Shown here: positions 20,196 through 23,147 of the stretch, one piece after another
Numbering within the stretch: the first letter of the stretch is position 1
How the letters are laid out: every line of letters begins with the position of its first letter
Origin: Escherichia phage K30
Strand: one strand, 5' to 3'
Sequence record: NC_015719.1
DNA: 40,940 bases
The notes under the pieces: generated by a model
Told to the model about the DNA's origin: nothing
What the model saw: only the letters and a program-made list of their open reading frames with translations
Database searches by the model: none
Translations under genes and position numbers: made by a program

Positions 20196-21152
20196 ATGGC
20201 TGGTGAATCTAACGCAGACGTATACGCATCCTTCGGTGTTAACAGTGCTGTACTGACTGGTAGTACACCTGAGGAGCACCAAGAAAACATGTTGGCTCTT
20301 GATGTTGCTGCCCGTGATGGCGATGATGCAATCGAGCTGAACACCAACAGTGATGACCCGTATGGCTCCGATGTGGACCAGTTCGGTGAACCTGAAGAGG
20401 GCCGTATGCAGGTCCGTATCTCCGCTGACGGTGATGACCCTGAAGAAGAGTCTACCGAAGAAGAACAGCAGGGTGACGAAGAGAGTAAGTCGGAGGAAGT
20501 AGCCGATGACGATGACGATGGTGAACCTGAAGAGTTCAAACCTATTGGTGAAACTCCGGCTGACATCAACGAAGCCTCTCAGCAGCTGGAAGAACACGAA
20601 GCTGGCTTTAACGACATGGTTGCCACTGCAATCGAACGCGGTCTCTCACAGGATGCTGTGACCCGTATTCAGCAGGAGTACCAGAACGAAGACAGTTTGT
20701 CCGATGAGTCTTACCGAGAGCTGGCCGAGGCTGGCTACAGTAAGGCATTCGTCGATGCGTACATTCGCGGTCAGGAAGCTCTGGTCAACCAGTACGTAGA
20801 GAAAGTGATGGACTTCGTAGGAGGCCGTGAGCGCTTCCAGCAGGTATACAGCCACATGCAGACCAATAACCCTGAGGGTGCCGAGGCGCTTATCAAGGCT
20901 TTTGAGTCTCGTGATGTAGCCACCATGAAGACGATTCTGAACCTAGCGGGACAGTCTCGTGATAAAACCTTTGGTAAGAAAGCAGAGCGCTCTATTGCCA
21001 AACGTGCAACCCCAGCGAAACCTGTGGCCCGTAAGGCTGTGGGCTTTGAGTCTCAAGCTGAGATGATTAAGGCGATGTCCGACCCGCGCTACCGTACTGA
21101 CTCTAAGTATCGTCGTGAAGTAGAGCAAAAGGTAATCGACTCTAAGTTTTAA
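20196..21152 (+). CDS. 9: Capsid assembly (scaffolding) protein (T7 gene 9)
   Basis: 318 aa, acidic; recalled similarity to T7 gp9 at both termini (ESNADVYASFGVNSAV; AMSDPRYRTD..YRR.VEQKVIDS.F). Confidence 0.95.
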   Translation: MAGESNADVYASFGVNSAVLTGSTPEEHQENMLALDVAARDGDDAIELNTNSDDPYGSDVDQFGEPEEGRMQVRISADGDDPEEESTEEEQQGDEESKSEEVADDDDDGEPEEFKPIGETPADINEASQQLEEHEAGFNDMVATAIERGLSQDAVTRIQQEYQNEDSLSDESYRELAEAGYSKAFVDAYIRGQEALVNQYVEKVMDFVGGRERFQQVYSHMQTNNPEGAEALIKAFESRDVATMKTILNLAGQSRDKTFGKKAERSIAKRATPAKPVARKAVGFESQAEMIKAMSDPRYRTDSKYRREVEQKVIDSKF

Positions 21153-21173
21153 TTAGGGCCCACTATAGGGAGA
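21151..21173 (+). promoter_or_regulatory. Phage RNAP promoter (phi10-like), aattagggcccactatagggaga
   Basis: Consensus match; about 165 nt upstream of the gene 10 ATG. Confidence 0.85.
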
Positions 21174-21332
21174 CACATCCGGTTCTACTGTAATGTAGAG
21201 TTTGTGCTCCCTTCGAGTTACACAATGAGTATCACCTCGTTTCAAGTAGTACCTCAACAGCTTGGCAACGATAGGCCCGTTTGGTCAGCGTAGTGACTAA
21301 TTCTATACTTAAACAACATAAGGAGATTCAAC

Positions 21333-22367
21333 ATGGCTAACATGCAAGGTGGACAGCAGCTCGGTACTAACCAAGGTAAAGGTCAATCCGCAGCAGACAA
21401 GCTGGCGCTATTCCTGAAAGTATTTGGCGGTGAAGTACTGACCGCATTCGCTCGTACCTCTGTGACCGCCAACCGTCACATGCAGCGTCAAATCAGCTCC
21501 GGTAAGTCCGCACAGTTCCCTGTGATTGGTCGCACCAAGGCTGCTTACCTGCAACCGGGCGAGTCTCTGGATGACAAACGTAAAGACATCAAGCACACAG
21601 AGAAGACCATTAACATTGACGGACTGCTGACTGCTGACGTGCTGATCTACGACATCGAAGACGCGATGAACCACTACGACGTGCGCTCCGAGTACACCTC
21701 TCAGATTGGTGAGTCTCTGGCGATGGCGGCTGATGGTGCGGTTCTGGCAGAACTAGCTGGTCTGATTAACTTGGCGGATGGCGTCAACGAGAACATCGCT
21801 GGTCTGGGCAAACCGTCCCTGCTGGAAGTTGGCGCTAAGGCTGACCTTACCGACCCTGTCAAACTGGGCCAAGCGGTTATCGCACAGCTGACCATTGCTC
21901 GTGCAGCTCTGACCAAGAACTACGTCCCGGCTAACGACCGTACGTTCTACACCACTCCAGACGTGTACTCTGCGATTCTGGCGGCTCTGATGCCTAACGC
22001 TGCGAACTATGCGGCTCTGATTGACCCTGAGCGTGGTTCTATCCGTAACGTGATGGGCTTCGAGGTTGTGGAAGTTCCGCACCTGACTGCTGGTGGTGCT
22101 GGCGATGACCGCCCGGAAGAAGGCACAGATGCGTCCAACCAGAAGCACGCCTTCCCGGCAACTGGTGGTAAGGTTAACAAAGAGAACGTTGTGGGCCTGT
22201 TCCAGCACCGTTCCGCTGTCGGCACCGTTAAGTTGAAAGATCTGGCTCTGGAGCGTGCTCGCCGTGCTGAGTATCAGGCTGACCAGATTATTGCTAAGTA
22301 CGCGATGGGTCACGGCGGTCTGCGTCCAGAATCTGCTGGTGCACTGGTTTTCAAAGCGGGGGCTTAA
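21333..22367 (+). CDS. 10: Major capsid protein 10A (T7 gene 10)
   Basis: 344 aa; recalled extensive identity with T7 gp10A (GGQQ.GTNQGKG, KLALFLKVFGGEVLTAFARTSVT, ADQIIAKYAMGHGGLRPE). Confidence 0.98.
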   Translation: MANMQGGQQLGTNQGKGQSAADKLALFLKVFGGEVLTAFARTSVTANRHMQRQISSGKSAQFPVIGRTKAAYLQPGESLDDKRKDIKHTEKTINIDGLLTADVLIYDIEDAMNHYDVRSEYTSQIGESLAMAADGAVLAELAGLINLADGVNENIAGLGKPSLLEVGAKADLTDPVKLGQAVIAQLTIARAALTKNYVPANDRTFYTTPDVYSAILAALMPNAANYAALIDPERGSIRNVMGFEVVEVPHLTAGGAGDDRPEEGTDASNQKHAFPATGGKVNKENVVGLFQHRSAVGTVKLKDLALERARRAEYQADQIIAKYAMGHGGLRPESAGALVFKAGA

Positions 22368-22504
22368 GAGTAGAAGCCTTTAGTGTGAACGTTGAGAGCG
22401 AAGCGGAGACTACCGTAGAGGCAGTCGCTGAAGTAACTCTAACGCCTCAGCAGAAGGCCGCTATCACACGTGCACGAAATAAGGCACTTAAGTCTCAGGA
22501 ATAA
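21333..22504 (+). CDS. 10B: Minor capsid protein 10B (predicted -1 frameshift product)
   Basis: ggttttc near the 10A stop (about 22346-22352); the -1 frame stays open for 52 codons to TAA at 22502-22504 (checked codon by codon). Confidence 0.55.
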
Positions 22505-22513
22505 TAAGCCAAA

Positions 22514-22551
22514 CCCCTTGGGGACCACTCACGGTCTCTGAGGGGTTTTTT
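22514..22551 (+). terminator. T-phi-like terminator for phage RNAP
   Basis: ccccttggggacc-actcac-ggtctctgagggg followed by tttttt; resembles T7 T-phi (AACCCCTTGGGG...GAGGGGTTTTTTG) from memory. Confidence 0.8.
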
Positions 22552-22568
22552 CGTTAGGAGCTTACAAT

Positions 22569-23147
22569 ATGAACATGCAAGATGCTTACTTTGGGTCTGC
22601 CGCTGAGCTGGATGCTATCAACGAGATGCTCGCAGCCATCGGTGAATCCCCAGTGACCACCCTTGATGAAGATGGTAGTGCAGACGTAGCGAATGCTCGT
22701 CGTATCCTCAACAGGATTAACCGCCAGATTCAATCGAAGGGTTGGGCCTTCAACATCAATGAGTCGGCCACACTGACCCCTGATGCCAGCACTGGGCTTA
22801 TCCCATTCCGTCCGGCCTACCTGTCCATCCTTGGTGGCCAGTACGTTAACCGTGGTGGCTGGGTGTACGATAAGTCGACCGACAGTGACACGTTCTCTGG
22901 ACCAATCACAGTGACTCTTATTACCCTTCAGGATTACGACGAGATGCCTGAATGTTTCCGCCAGTGGATTGTCACCAAGGCCAGCCGTCAGTTCAACTCT
23001 CGGTTCTTCGGAGCTGAGGACGTAGAGAACTCTCTGGCACAGGAAGAGATGGAAGCACGGATGGCGTGCAACGAGTACGAGATGGACTTCGGGCAATACA
23101 ACATGCTTGACGGTGACGCATACGTACAGGGTCTCATCGGTCGTTAA
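22569..23147 (+). CDS. 11: Tail tubular protein A (T7 gene 11)
   Basis: 192 aa; recalled similarity to T7 gp11 ([55 protein letters not shown]). Confidence 0.95.

What the first reader, a model, noticed from the sequence alone, without database searches (positions are those of the whole stretch)
22343..22504. Capsid gene has a slippery site and an open -1 frame: predicted minor capsid 10B
Near the 10A stop the sequence ggttttc is followed in the -1 frame by 52 sense codons ending at TAA 22502-22504; I checked every codon. T7 makes its minor capsid protein 10B by a -1 frameshift at the same relative place. The T-phi-like terminator hairpin lies 10 nt beyond the 10B stop.
Basis: partly seen in the sequence, partly recalled or inferred. 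Interest (0 to 1): 0.55.

Follow-up and report, generated by a model that had tools for sequence, protein, structure and literature searches.

The report
T7-type capsid frameshift (10A/10B)

Summary
G GTT TTC lies at 22346-22352, in the capsid (10A) reading frame, 19 nt before the 10A stop. The -1 frame is open from there for 52 codons to TAA 22502-22504. A T-phi-type terminator hairpin follows at 22511-22548.

Openness alone is weak evidence: 5.6% of shuffles stay open. The comparative evidence settles it.
- Of 78 related capsid loci that could be aligned, 74 keep GTT and 71 keep TTC at these two codons.
- Every locus keeps a -1 frame open past the 10A stop; one is cut short by an in-frame TAG.
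- The extension's 18-codon core (LTPxQKAAxTRAxNKAxK) varies at all 18 third positions but at only 6 first and 4 second positions. pN/pS is 0.19 in the -1 frame, against 2.9 and 1.7 in the other frames.
- The core is homologous to the T7 10B tail. The same heptamer was shown by mass spectrometry to give 10B in phage Kvp1.
- An independent start is excluded for the family: 23 of 36 short-extension loci have no usable start codon.

Verdict: a programmed -1 ribosomal frameshift giving a 390-aa, 41.4-kDa minor capsid protein. It is a new member of a known kind. No conserved local stimulatory RNA structure was found. A long-range pairing with the terminator CCCC is a weak lead.

The parts
21333..22367 (+). 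Gene 10A, the major capsid protein (344 aa, 36.4 kDa), read in the zero frame.
   Evidence: ORF list. Pfam PF21703 Gp10A-like, E 4e-102. Close match to solved capsid chains 7y23 and T7 2xvr.
22346..22352 (+). Shift heptamer G GUU UUC. tRNA-Val on GUU and tRNA-Phe on UUC re-pair to GGU and UUU.
   Evidence: The same heptamer occurs in T7. GTT is kept in 74 of 78 loci and TTC in 71 of 78, although GTT makes up only 41% of Val codons in these genes. G_GU is listed as the T7 gene 10 variant of X_XXY_YYZ (PMC5009743).
22352..22504 (+). 10B-specific -1 frame extension: 50 codons (QSGG...KSQE) plus TAA. The product is 390 aa, 41.4 kDa.
   Evidence: Matches phrog_20538 at 2e-19, and phrog_267 covers residues 1-381 of the fused protein. 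tblastn finds the peptide in 118 phage records.
22439..22492 (+). Conserved basic core of the extension, LTPQQKAAITRARNKALK.
   Evidence: Variable columns at codon positions 1/2/3 are 6/4/18. pN/pS is 0.19 in the -1 frame against 2.9 and 1.7 in the other frames, across 27 unique loci.
22365..22367 (+). 10A stop codon (TAA), 13 nt after the heptamer ends.
   Evidence: The stop lies 12-24 nt after the first zero-frame codon of the heptamer in all loci.
22505..22507 (+). Second in-frame TAA: a tandem stop at the end of 10B.
22511..22554 (+). T-phi-type terminator for the phage RNA polymerase: a hairpin at 22511-22548 followed by a U-run.
   Evidence: -26.8 kcal/mol, z -4.9. It is the only structure RNAalifold finds conserved across 25 loci, with covariation in the upper stem. 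In T7 its CCCC is required for frameshifting (PMC5009743).
22358..22381 (+). Candidate local hairpin starting 6 nt 3' of the heptamer. Not supported.
   Evidence: 8 pairs, but the 48-nt segment holding it folds to only -8.2 kcal/mol, no better than shuffles (z 0.35). It is not conserved.
22506..22517 (+). Pre-terminator segment AAGCCAAACCCC, complementary to GGGGGCUU at 22358-22365. This is a candidate long-range partner and a lead only.
   Evidence: Duplex of -10.3 kcal/mol; 5.5% of the other 30-nt windows of the mRNA pair as well.

Best explanation
Programmed -1 ribosomal frameshifting of the T7 gene 10 type. Most ribosomes read gene 10A to TAA 22365-22367 and make the 344-aa major capsid protein. 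A minority slip back one base when Val-tRNA sits on GUU (22347-49) and Phe-tRNA on UUC (22350-52), re-pairing to GGU and UUU. They then read CAA at 22352 and 49 further codons to TAA 22502-22504. The product is a 390-aa, 41.4-kDa minor capsid protein (10B). It shares residues 1-340 with 10A and carries a 50-residue tail: an acidic linker followed by a conserved basic segment, LTPQQKAAITRARNKALK. 10B co-assembles with 10A into the T=7 shell, with the tail on the outside.

Shown here: the site, the frame, homology of the tail, selection on the -1 frame, and nucleotide-level conservation of the heptamer.

Inferred from T7 and Kvp1: that slippage happens on the ribosome, that it runs at a level of the order of 10%, and that the product is incorporated into virions.

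Unknown: the stimulatory element and what the tail is for.
For: - Site and frame.
- T7 has the same heptamer at the equivalent place, and my reconstruction reproduces the annotated end of T7 10B at 398 aa.
- In 80 IMG/VR loci with 79-100% capsid identity, 73 have GGTTTTC or AGTTTTC. The other seven have GGTTTTA, GGTAAAG, or (C)CCAAAG in the five T3-type loci. All 80 keep a -1 frame open past the 10A stop, truncated only in L073.
- Coding signature in the -1 frame: pN/pS 0.19, against 2.9 and 1.7 in the other frames, and all 18 third positions vary.
- Length differences between extensions are whole codons.
- GTT is kept in 74 of 78 loci although it is only 41% of Val codons in these genes.
- Tail homology: 15/21 identity to the T7 10B tail, E 4e-7; 77% identity to the annotated 10B tail of phiSG-JL2; PHROG matches.
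- Kvp1 (39,472 bp, the size of locus L075) has the same heptamer and a homologous tail, and its 10B was confirmed by MS/MS (PMC2579914).
- G_GU is the recognised T7 variant of the shift motif (PMC5009743).
Against: - There are no protein data for this phage.
- The heptamer is not a strict X XXY YYZ.
- No conserved stimulatory structure was found 3' of the site, so the efficiency cannot be predicted.
- The open frame alone is not statistically remarkable.
- One relative (L073) carries a TAG inside the tail, so the full tail is not indispensable.
Confidence: 0.9

Rival explanations
1. The downstream frame is a free-standing small gene that starts at GTG 22385 (39 aa). Several GenBank relatives annotate it this way, as 'head protein' or 'minor capsid protein'.
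For: the ORF listing reports a GTG-initiated 39-aa ORF at 22385..22504. VLCpiA3d, 5OI88, VSG32 and AP5 annotate such ORFs.
Against: Of 36 short-extension loci, 11 have no in-frame ATG, GTG or TTG after the 10A stop, and 12 have one only 2-3 codons from the end. All of these still conserve the peptide. There is no Shine-Dalgarno sequence in the 18 nt before 22385. The -1 frame is kept open right back to the heptamer in every locus.
Confidence: 0.03
2. The open -1 frame is a chance feature or a decaying relic and is no longer translated in this phage.
For: 5.6% of shuffles stay open. L073 has a premature TAG in the tail.
Against: Strong purifying selection acts specifically in the -1 frame. The heptamer is conserved beyond codon-usage expectation. 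The window's own tail is intact and 96-98% identical to those of its nearest relatives.
Confidence: 0.03
3. The frame change arises by transcriptional slippage of the phage RNA polymerase on the T run, not on the ribosome.
For: The site contains a T4 run. Slippage-derived capsid and tail variants are known in other phages (general knowledge; reviewed in PMC5009743).
Against: Four T is well below the homopolymer lengths at which slippage is productive (established knowledge). Relatives use non-homopolymeric sites such as C CCA AAG with the same outcome. The review cited here treats T7 gene 10 as ribosomal frameshifting decoded by bacterial ribosomes (PMC5009743).
Confidence: 0.02
4. There is a sequencing or assembly indel, and the true capsid gene is one continuous 390-codon ORF.
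For: Homopolymer indels are common assembly errors in przondovirus genomes (bioRxiv 10.1101/2023.03.09.531871).
Against: The same two-frame arrangement is seen in all 80 independently assembled loci and in T7, T3, K11 and KP32.
Confidence: 0.01

Closest known systems
Bacteriophage T7 gene 10A/10B -1 frameshift (Teseptimavirus T7, NC_001604)
   Same: The heptamer G GUU UUC is identical and sits a few codons before the 10A stop. The extension is of similar length (50 against 56 new residues) and has a homologous basic core, LTPxQ.AAxTRAxNKAxK. A T-phi terminator follows directly after the 10B stop.
   Different: The acidic linker part of the tail is unrelated in sequence. The capsid is about 80% identical. 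The shift site lies 19 nt rather than 16 nt before the stop. The distance from shift site to terminator is about 165 nt rather than about 185 nt.
Kluyvera phage Kvp1 gp10B (confirmed by mass spectrometry)
   Same: Same heptamer and a homologous tail. It gives direct protein evidence that this site and tail type are expressed (PMC2579914; L075).
   Different: A different genus and host. Kvp1 shows no long-range complementarity to the terminator.
Salmonella phage phiSG-JL2 10B (Teetrevirus; annotated as a joined CDS)
   Same: Its tail is the closest outside Klebsiella phages, at 77% identity..GGLRVAPLSMNAESEVEPTQEVAAEVALTPQQKAAITRARNKALKSQ.
   Different: The shift site is a Lys-type G CCA AAG instead of the Phe-type G GUU UUC.
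Bacteriophage T3 10B
   Same: A -1 frameshift at the end of gene 10 produces a minor capsid protein.
   Different: The shift site is C CCA AAG, and the extension is a Big_2 Ig-like domain of about 100 aa (Pfam PF02368, 2.8e-10) unrelated to the window's tail (PMC5009743).
Klebsiella phages KP32 and K11 (same genus, Przondovirus)
   Same: Same heptamer, same terminator, and capsid about 94-98% identical.
   Different: The -1 extension is an unrelated all-beta domain of about 96 aa (phrog_7473). Neither record annotates it as a CDS.
Canonical X XXY YYZ frameshift with a 3' hairpin or pseudoknot (dnaX, IS elements, retroviral type)
   Same: Tandem-tRNA -1 slippage on a heptamer.
   Different: The first triplet is G_GU, not XXX. 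No conserved hairpin or pseudoknot lies 5-9 nt downstream, and there is no upstream Shine-Dalgarno-like stimulator.

Membership tests
T7-type gene 10 (10A/10B) programmed -1 frameshift | The host gene is a T7 gp10A-family major capsid protein. | tested here: met
   Pfam PF21703, E 4e-102. PDB hit to T7 10A (2xvr), E 2.6e-166.
T7-type gene 10 (10A/10B) programmed -1 frameshift | The shift heptamer G GUU UUC lies in the zero frame a few codons before the 10A stop. | tested here: met
   22346-22352, phased G|GTT|TTC, 19 nt before the stop. T7 has it 16 nt before its stop.
T7-type gene 10 (10A/10B) programmed -1 frameshift | The -1 frame is open from the heptamer to well beyond the 10A stop. | tested here: met
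   52 codons to TAA 22502-22504.
T7-type gene 10 (10A/10B) programmed -1 frameshift | The extension is homologous to known 10B tails. | tested here: met
   15/21 identity to the T7 tail, E 4e-7. 77% identity to the phiSG-JL2 10B tail. phrog_267 covers residues 1-381 of the fused protein.
T7-type gene 10 (10A/10B) programmed -1 frameshift | The -1 frame evolves as coding sequence. | tested here: met
   pN/pS 0.19 against 2.9 and 1.7 in the other frames. Variable positions 6/4/18 by codon position.
T7-type gene 10 (10A/10B) programmed -1 frameshift | The T-phi terminator lies just 3' of the 10B stop (in T7 a required distal element). | tested here: met
   Its presence and conservation are shown. 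Its role in frameshifting here cannot be tested with these tools.
T7-type gene 10 (10A/10B) programmed -1 frameshift | The 10B protein is actually made and is present in virions. | not testable with these tools
   Known only from relatives: T7, and Kvp1 by mass spectrometry (PMC2579914).
Canonical X XXY YYZ + 3' structure -1 PRF | A strict X XXY YYZ heptamer. | tested here: not met
   The site is G GUU UUC, with first triplet G_GU. The script also screened gene 10A for strict in-frame heptamers and printed none.
Canonical X XXY YYZ + 3' structure -1 PRF | A stable, conserved hairpin or pseudoknot 5-9 nt 3' of the heptamer. | tested here: not met
   The 48-nt segment holding the local hairpin folds with z 0.35. 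RNAalifold finds only the terminator. Mean z is -0.58 over 46 unique sequences. No Rfam match.
Ig-like capsid decoration added by frameshift (T3 type) | The extension folds as an Ig-like domain (Big_2 or similar). | tested here: not met
   No Pfam domain in residues 341-390 of the fused protein. The tail is 50 aa: an acidic linker plus a basic segment. T3-type relatives do match Big_2.

The most novel reading that the evidence does not exclude
The missing 3' stimulator may be a long-range helix. The G-rich segment that starts 6 nt after the heptamer and spans the 10A stop (22358-22365, GGGGGCUU) would pair with the nucleotides abutting and entering the terminator's 5' arm (22506-22510 AAGCC, plus CCC at 22514-22516). 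That would bring the terminator hairpin to the ribosome's entry channel.

A helix in the same position, but of different sequence, is predicted in several other clades:
- T7 itself: GG.GU plus AUGCUG pairing with UAGCAU.ACCC.
- The T7 clade and phiSG-JL2.
- L057, L059/L064, L062 and L066.

In those clades the 30 nt after the shift site are the best or nearly the best partner in the whole gene 10 mRNA for the 12 nt that end in the terminator CCCC (0 to 2% of other windows pair as well; 5.5% in the window).

If real, this would explain the T7 requirement, still described as unexplained, for a CCCC in the terminator about 200 nt from the shift site.
Probability: 0.15. Interest if true: 0.55.

Novelty: new member of a known kind. 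Interest (0 to 1): 0.25.

Why it matters
For this phage it adds one virion protein, a 390-aa minor capsid protein, that gene callers miss or mislabel. In every Przondovirus record I inspected (VLCpiA3d, P20-768, L2_1, Pharr, K11, KP32) and in the likely przondovirus 5OI88, the frameshift product is either absent or replaced by a bogus 40-aa 'head protein' ORF. PHROG families have been built from such fragments.

Correct annotation matters for therapeutic Klebsiella phages, both for proteome inventories and for capsid display engineering at the 10B C-terminus. Biologically it is an expected homologue of a 1991 discovery, not a surprise.

Two by-products are of more interest:
- The extension behaves as a swappable cassette between two conserved anchors, the shift site and the terminator.
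- The comparative set gives a concrete, mutationally testable pairing model for the unexplained long-range requirement in T7.

Tried and rejected
- **Rfam** scan of 21000-23000 at E <= 1: nothing found.
- **Local hairpin** at 22358-22381 as stimulator: the segment holding it is no more stable than shuffles. It is absent from the RNAalifold consensus of 25 loci. There is no family-wide excess of structure in the 45 nt after the site (mean z -0.58).
- **Global fold** of 22346-22556: this gave a long-range stem (22359-68 with 22487-96) and z -4.45. Most of that signal is the terminator, because without it z is only -1.9. The stem rests on two CTTAAG palindromes that are not kept across clades.
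- **Upstream Shine-Dalgarno-like stimulator**: none is visible in 22320-22345.
- **Open-frame statistics** as proof: too weak on their own.
- **Identity of the phage**: the genome is not in the INPHARED copy. The best matches are 97.6% over gene 10 (VLCpiA3d) and about 90-93% over 25 kb (KpV766, KpV289 and KpV92). It is IMGVR_UViG_651703039_000001.
- **Literature on a capsid frameshift in Przondovirus**: none found. The hits concern assembly frameshift errors. The original Condron et al. papers are not held in the library.
- **Solved structures**: they contain only 10A-length chains and no tail.
- **AlphaFold of the KP32-type extension**: low confidence (pLDDT 58), so the Ig-like assignment remains tentative.

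Full report
**What the window is.** The 40,940-bp window is a complete T7-like phage genome (IMGVR_UViG_651703039_000001). Its nearest named relatives are Klebsiella phages of the genus Przondovirus. VLCpiA3d is 97.6% identical over gene 10. KpV766, KpV289 and KpV92 are about 90-93% identical over 25 kb. The exact genome is not in the phage collection searched.

**Checking the observation.**
- Gene 10A runs 21333..22367 and encodes 344 aa ending ..GALVFKAGA*. It is a T7 gp10A-family capsid protein (Pfam PF21703, 4e-102).
- GGTTTTC lies at 22346-22352 and is phased G|GTT|TTC in the capsid frame.
- From 22346 the -1 frame reads 52 sense codons to TAA 22502-22504, and a second TAA follows directly.
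- Inside gene 10A the -1 frame has 27 stops, about one per 12 codons. It then has none for 68 codons.
- The terminator hairpin is 22511-22548, at -26.8 kcal/mol; no shuffle out of 200 folds as well. Its stem starts 6 nt after the 10B stop and its CCCC core 9 nt after.
'10 nt' is approximate.

**Is it more than chance?** Taken alone, not strongly. 5.6% of shuffles of the 156 nt stay open, and about 1% of 52-codon windows in the -1 frame of this genome's genes are open. Six of 37 genes have a longer -1 run past their stop, mostly because it runs into the next gene. The case rests on comparison.

**Comparative evidence.** I fetched 80 capsid loci from IMG/VR with 79-100% protein identity, and annotated records of T7, T3, phiSG-JL2, K11, KP32 and others.
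1. Of the 80 loci, 73 carry GGTTTTC or AGTTTTC at the homologous codons. The other seven carry GGTTTTA, GGTAAAG, or (C)CCAAAG in the five T3-type loci. Every locus keeps a -1 frame open past the 10A stop. L073 is the one locus where an in-frame TAG cuts it short.
2. The Val codon is GTT in 74 of 78 alignable loci and the Phe codon is TTC in 71 of 78. GTT is only 41% of Val codons in these genes, and neighbouring codons vary synonymously.
3. Among 27 unique short extensions, the 18-codon core LTPxQKAAxTRAxNKAxK varies at all 18 third positions but at only 6 first and 4 second positions. pN/pS is 0.19 in the -1 frame, against 2.9 and 1.7 when the same bases are read in the other two frames.
4. 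Length differences between extensions are whole codons. The window has a 7-codon insertion relative to most przondovirus short tails.
5. The tail is homologous to known 10B tails: 15 of 21 residues identical to T7 (E 4e-7) and 77% identical to the annotated 10B tail of phiSG-JL2. A PHROG capsid profile aligns to residues 1-381 of the fused protein.
6. My reconstruction rule applied to T7 gives 398 aa and ends exactly at the annotated end of 10B.
7. Kluyvera phage Kvp1 has the same heptamer and a homologous tail (L075 matches its genome size). Its 10B was demonstrated by MS/MS, with the shift placed at TTTTCA (PMC2579914).

**Rivals.**
- A free-standing ORF starting at GTG 22385 is how some GenBank records treat this region. 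But 11 of 36 short-extension loci have no in-frame start after the 10A stop, and 12 more have one only 2-3 codons from the end. All of these still conserve the peptide. The window's GTG also has no Shine-Dalgarno sequence.
- A dead relic is contradicted by the selection signature.
- Transcriptional slippage is unlikely on four T. It is also incompatible with relatives that reach the same outcome at C CCA AAG.
- An assembly indel is excluded by the identical two-frame layout in all independent genomes.

**Mechanism.**
- The site is the T7 variant of the tandem-slippage motif, with G_GU in place of XXX (PMC5009743). Val-tRNA would move from GUU to GGU and Phe-tRNA from UUC to UUU, and the next codon read is CAA at 22352.
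- The product is ..GALVF-QSGGLRVEAFSVNVESEAETTVEAVAEVTLTPQQKAAITRARNKALKSQE: 390 aa and 41.4 kDa, against 36.4 kDa for 10A.
- The tail has an acidic N-terminal part (net charge -5) and a basic conserved C-terminal part (+4, pI 11).
- From established knowledge of T7, I infer a level of the order of 10% and incorporation into the shell. Neither is shown here.
- No solved structure includes a 10B tail.

**Stimulatory signals.**
- None could be pinned down. There is no Rfam match.
- The 48-nt segment holding the 8-bp hairpin 6 nt downstream folds no better than shuffles.
- RNAalifold over 25 diverse loci returns only the terminator.
- There is no family-wide excess of folding in the 45 nt after the site.
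- The Atkins review records that in T7 a CCCC in the terminator, more than 200 nt away, is involved, and that this remains unexplained.

I therefore tested complementarity between the 30-40 nt after the heptamer and the 12 nt that end in the terminator CCCC.
- **Family-wide:** no signal (mean z -0.28).
- **Clades with a signal:** in several clades the post-heptamer window is the best or nearly the best partner in the whole gene 10 mRNA. The fraction of other windows that pair as well is 0/368 in the T7 clade, 1.9% in T7 itself, 0 in phiSG-JL2, L057 and L064, and 1-2% in L059, L062 and L066. In the window it is 5.5%.
- **Geometry:** the predicted helices are positionally equivalent. The 5' strand starts 5-6 nt after the heptamer and the 3' strand abuts the terminator, while the sequences differ.
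- **Clades without a signal:** KP32, K11, the common przondovirus short-tail lineage, and Kvp1, which does make 10B.
- **Caveats:** several of the positive clades share the GGGGGCUUAAG motif by descent, and CCCC is invariant for terminator reasons.
- **Status:** a lead, not a finding. I put it at about 0.15.

**Comparison with what is known.** This is a homologue of the T7 10A/10B frameshift, in a genus where the phenomenon is implied but not annotated as a joined CDS in any record I inspected. K11 names the gene '10A', and the KP32 RefSeq note mentions a -1 product. All sequence-testable membership criteria are met. Production of the protein cannot be tested here. It is not a canonical X XXY YYZ plus hairpin site, and it is not the T3-type Ig-like decoration.

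**Verdict.** It is a new member of a known kind and of low to moderate interest (0.25). Its main value is correcting annotation. The side observations on cassette exchange and on the terminator-linked pairing could be followed up.

Noticed in passing
L090:2199-2491 (KP32), L089:1987-2285 (K11); 39 of 52 przondovirus loci, e.g. L011:2014-2310: Most przondoviruses carry a different -1 extension behind the same GGTTTTC. It is an all-beta domain of about 96 aa (phrog_7473, no Pfam hit). The AlphaFold model has pLDDT 58, with weak Foldseek hits to Ig-like domains, including the lambda gpV C-terminal domain. It is unannotated, and the K11 record leaves about 290 nt 'empty' there.
   Followed up: partly
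window 22352-22510 compared with L007-L053: The stretch between the shift site and the terminator behaves as a swappable cassette. Capsid-body nucleotide identity is the same within and between extension types (A-A 96.5%, B-B 95.5%, A-B 96.0%). The window's closest capsid gene (L020) carries the other type.
   Followed up: partly
L073:2026-2148: A 38,616-bp relative has GAG changed to TAG after 21 extension codons. The downstream sequence still encodes QELTPQQKAA.., so this is a naturally truncated 10B tail.
   Followed up: no
L060:2005, L058:2014, L086:1290-1310 (phiSG-JL2), L091 (T3), L063 and L066-L069: The shift site turns over while the outcome is kept. GGTAAAG, GGTTTTA and G CCA AAG occur with short T7-like tails. 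The T3-type loci have CCCAAAG (GCCCAAAG in L066) with Big_2 Ig-like tails.
   Followed up: partly
L001:1586-1708 (VLCpiA3d), L087:1337-1462 (5OI88), L088:1328-1444 (VSG32): Public records annotate the 10B tail as a free-standing 'head protein', 'minor capsid protein' or 'hypothetical protein' of about 40 aa. PHROGs 20538 and 12582 appear to be built from these fragments. Some records label the 10A CDS itself 'minor capsid protein'.
   Followed up: yes
window 22358-22365 and 22506-22517; L005 (T7) 1194-1211 and about 1365-1376: The segment just 3' of the shift site is complementary to the nucleotides that end in the terminator CCCC. It is the best-in-mRNA partner in the T7 clade, phiSG-JL2, L057 and L064. 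In the window 5.5% of other windows pair as well, and the signal is absent in the KP32, K11 and Kvp1 lineages.
   Followed up: partly
L055:1001-2230: A 20.6-kb metagenomic relative has a shorter 10A (318 aa). Its long extension has lost its stop and reads on into the terminator (..SEMTNPLGTTHGL). This could be a real variant or an assembly error.
   Followed up: no
window 22502-22507: 10B ends in a tandem TAA TAA.
   Followed up: no
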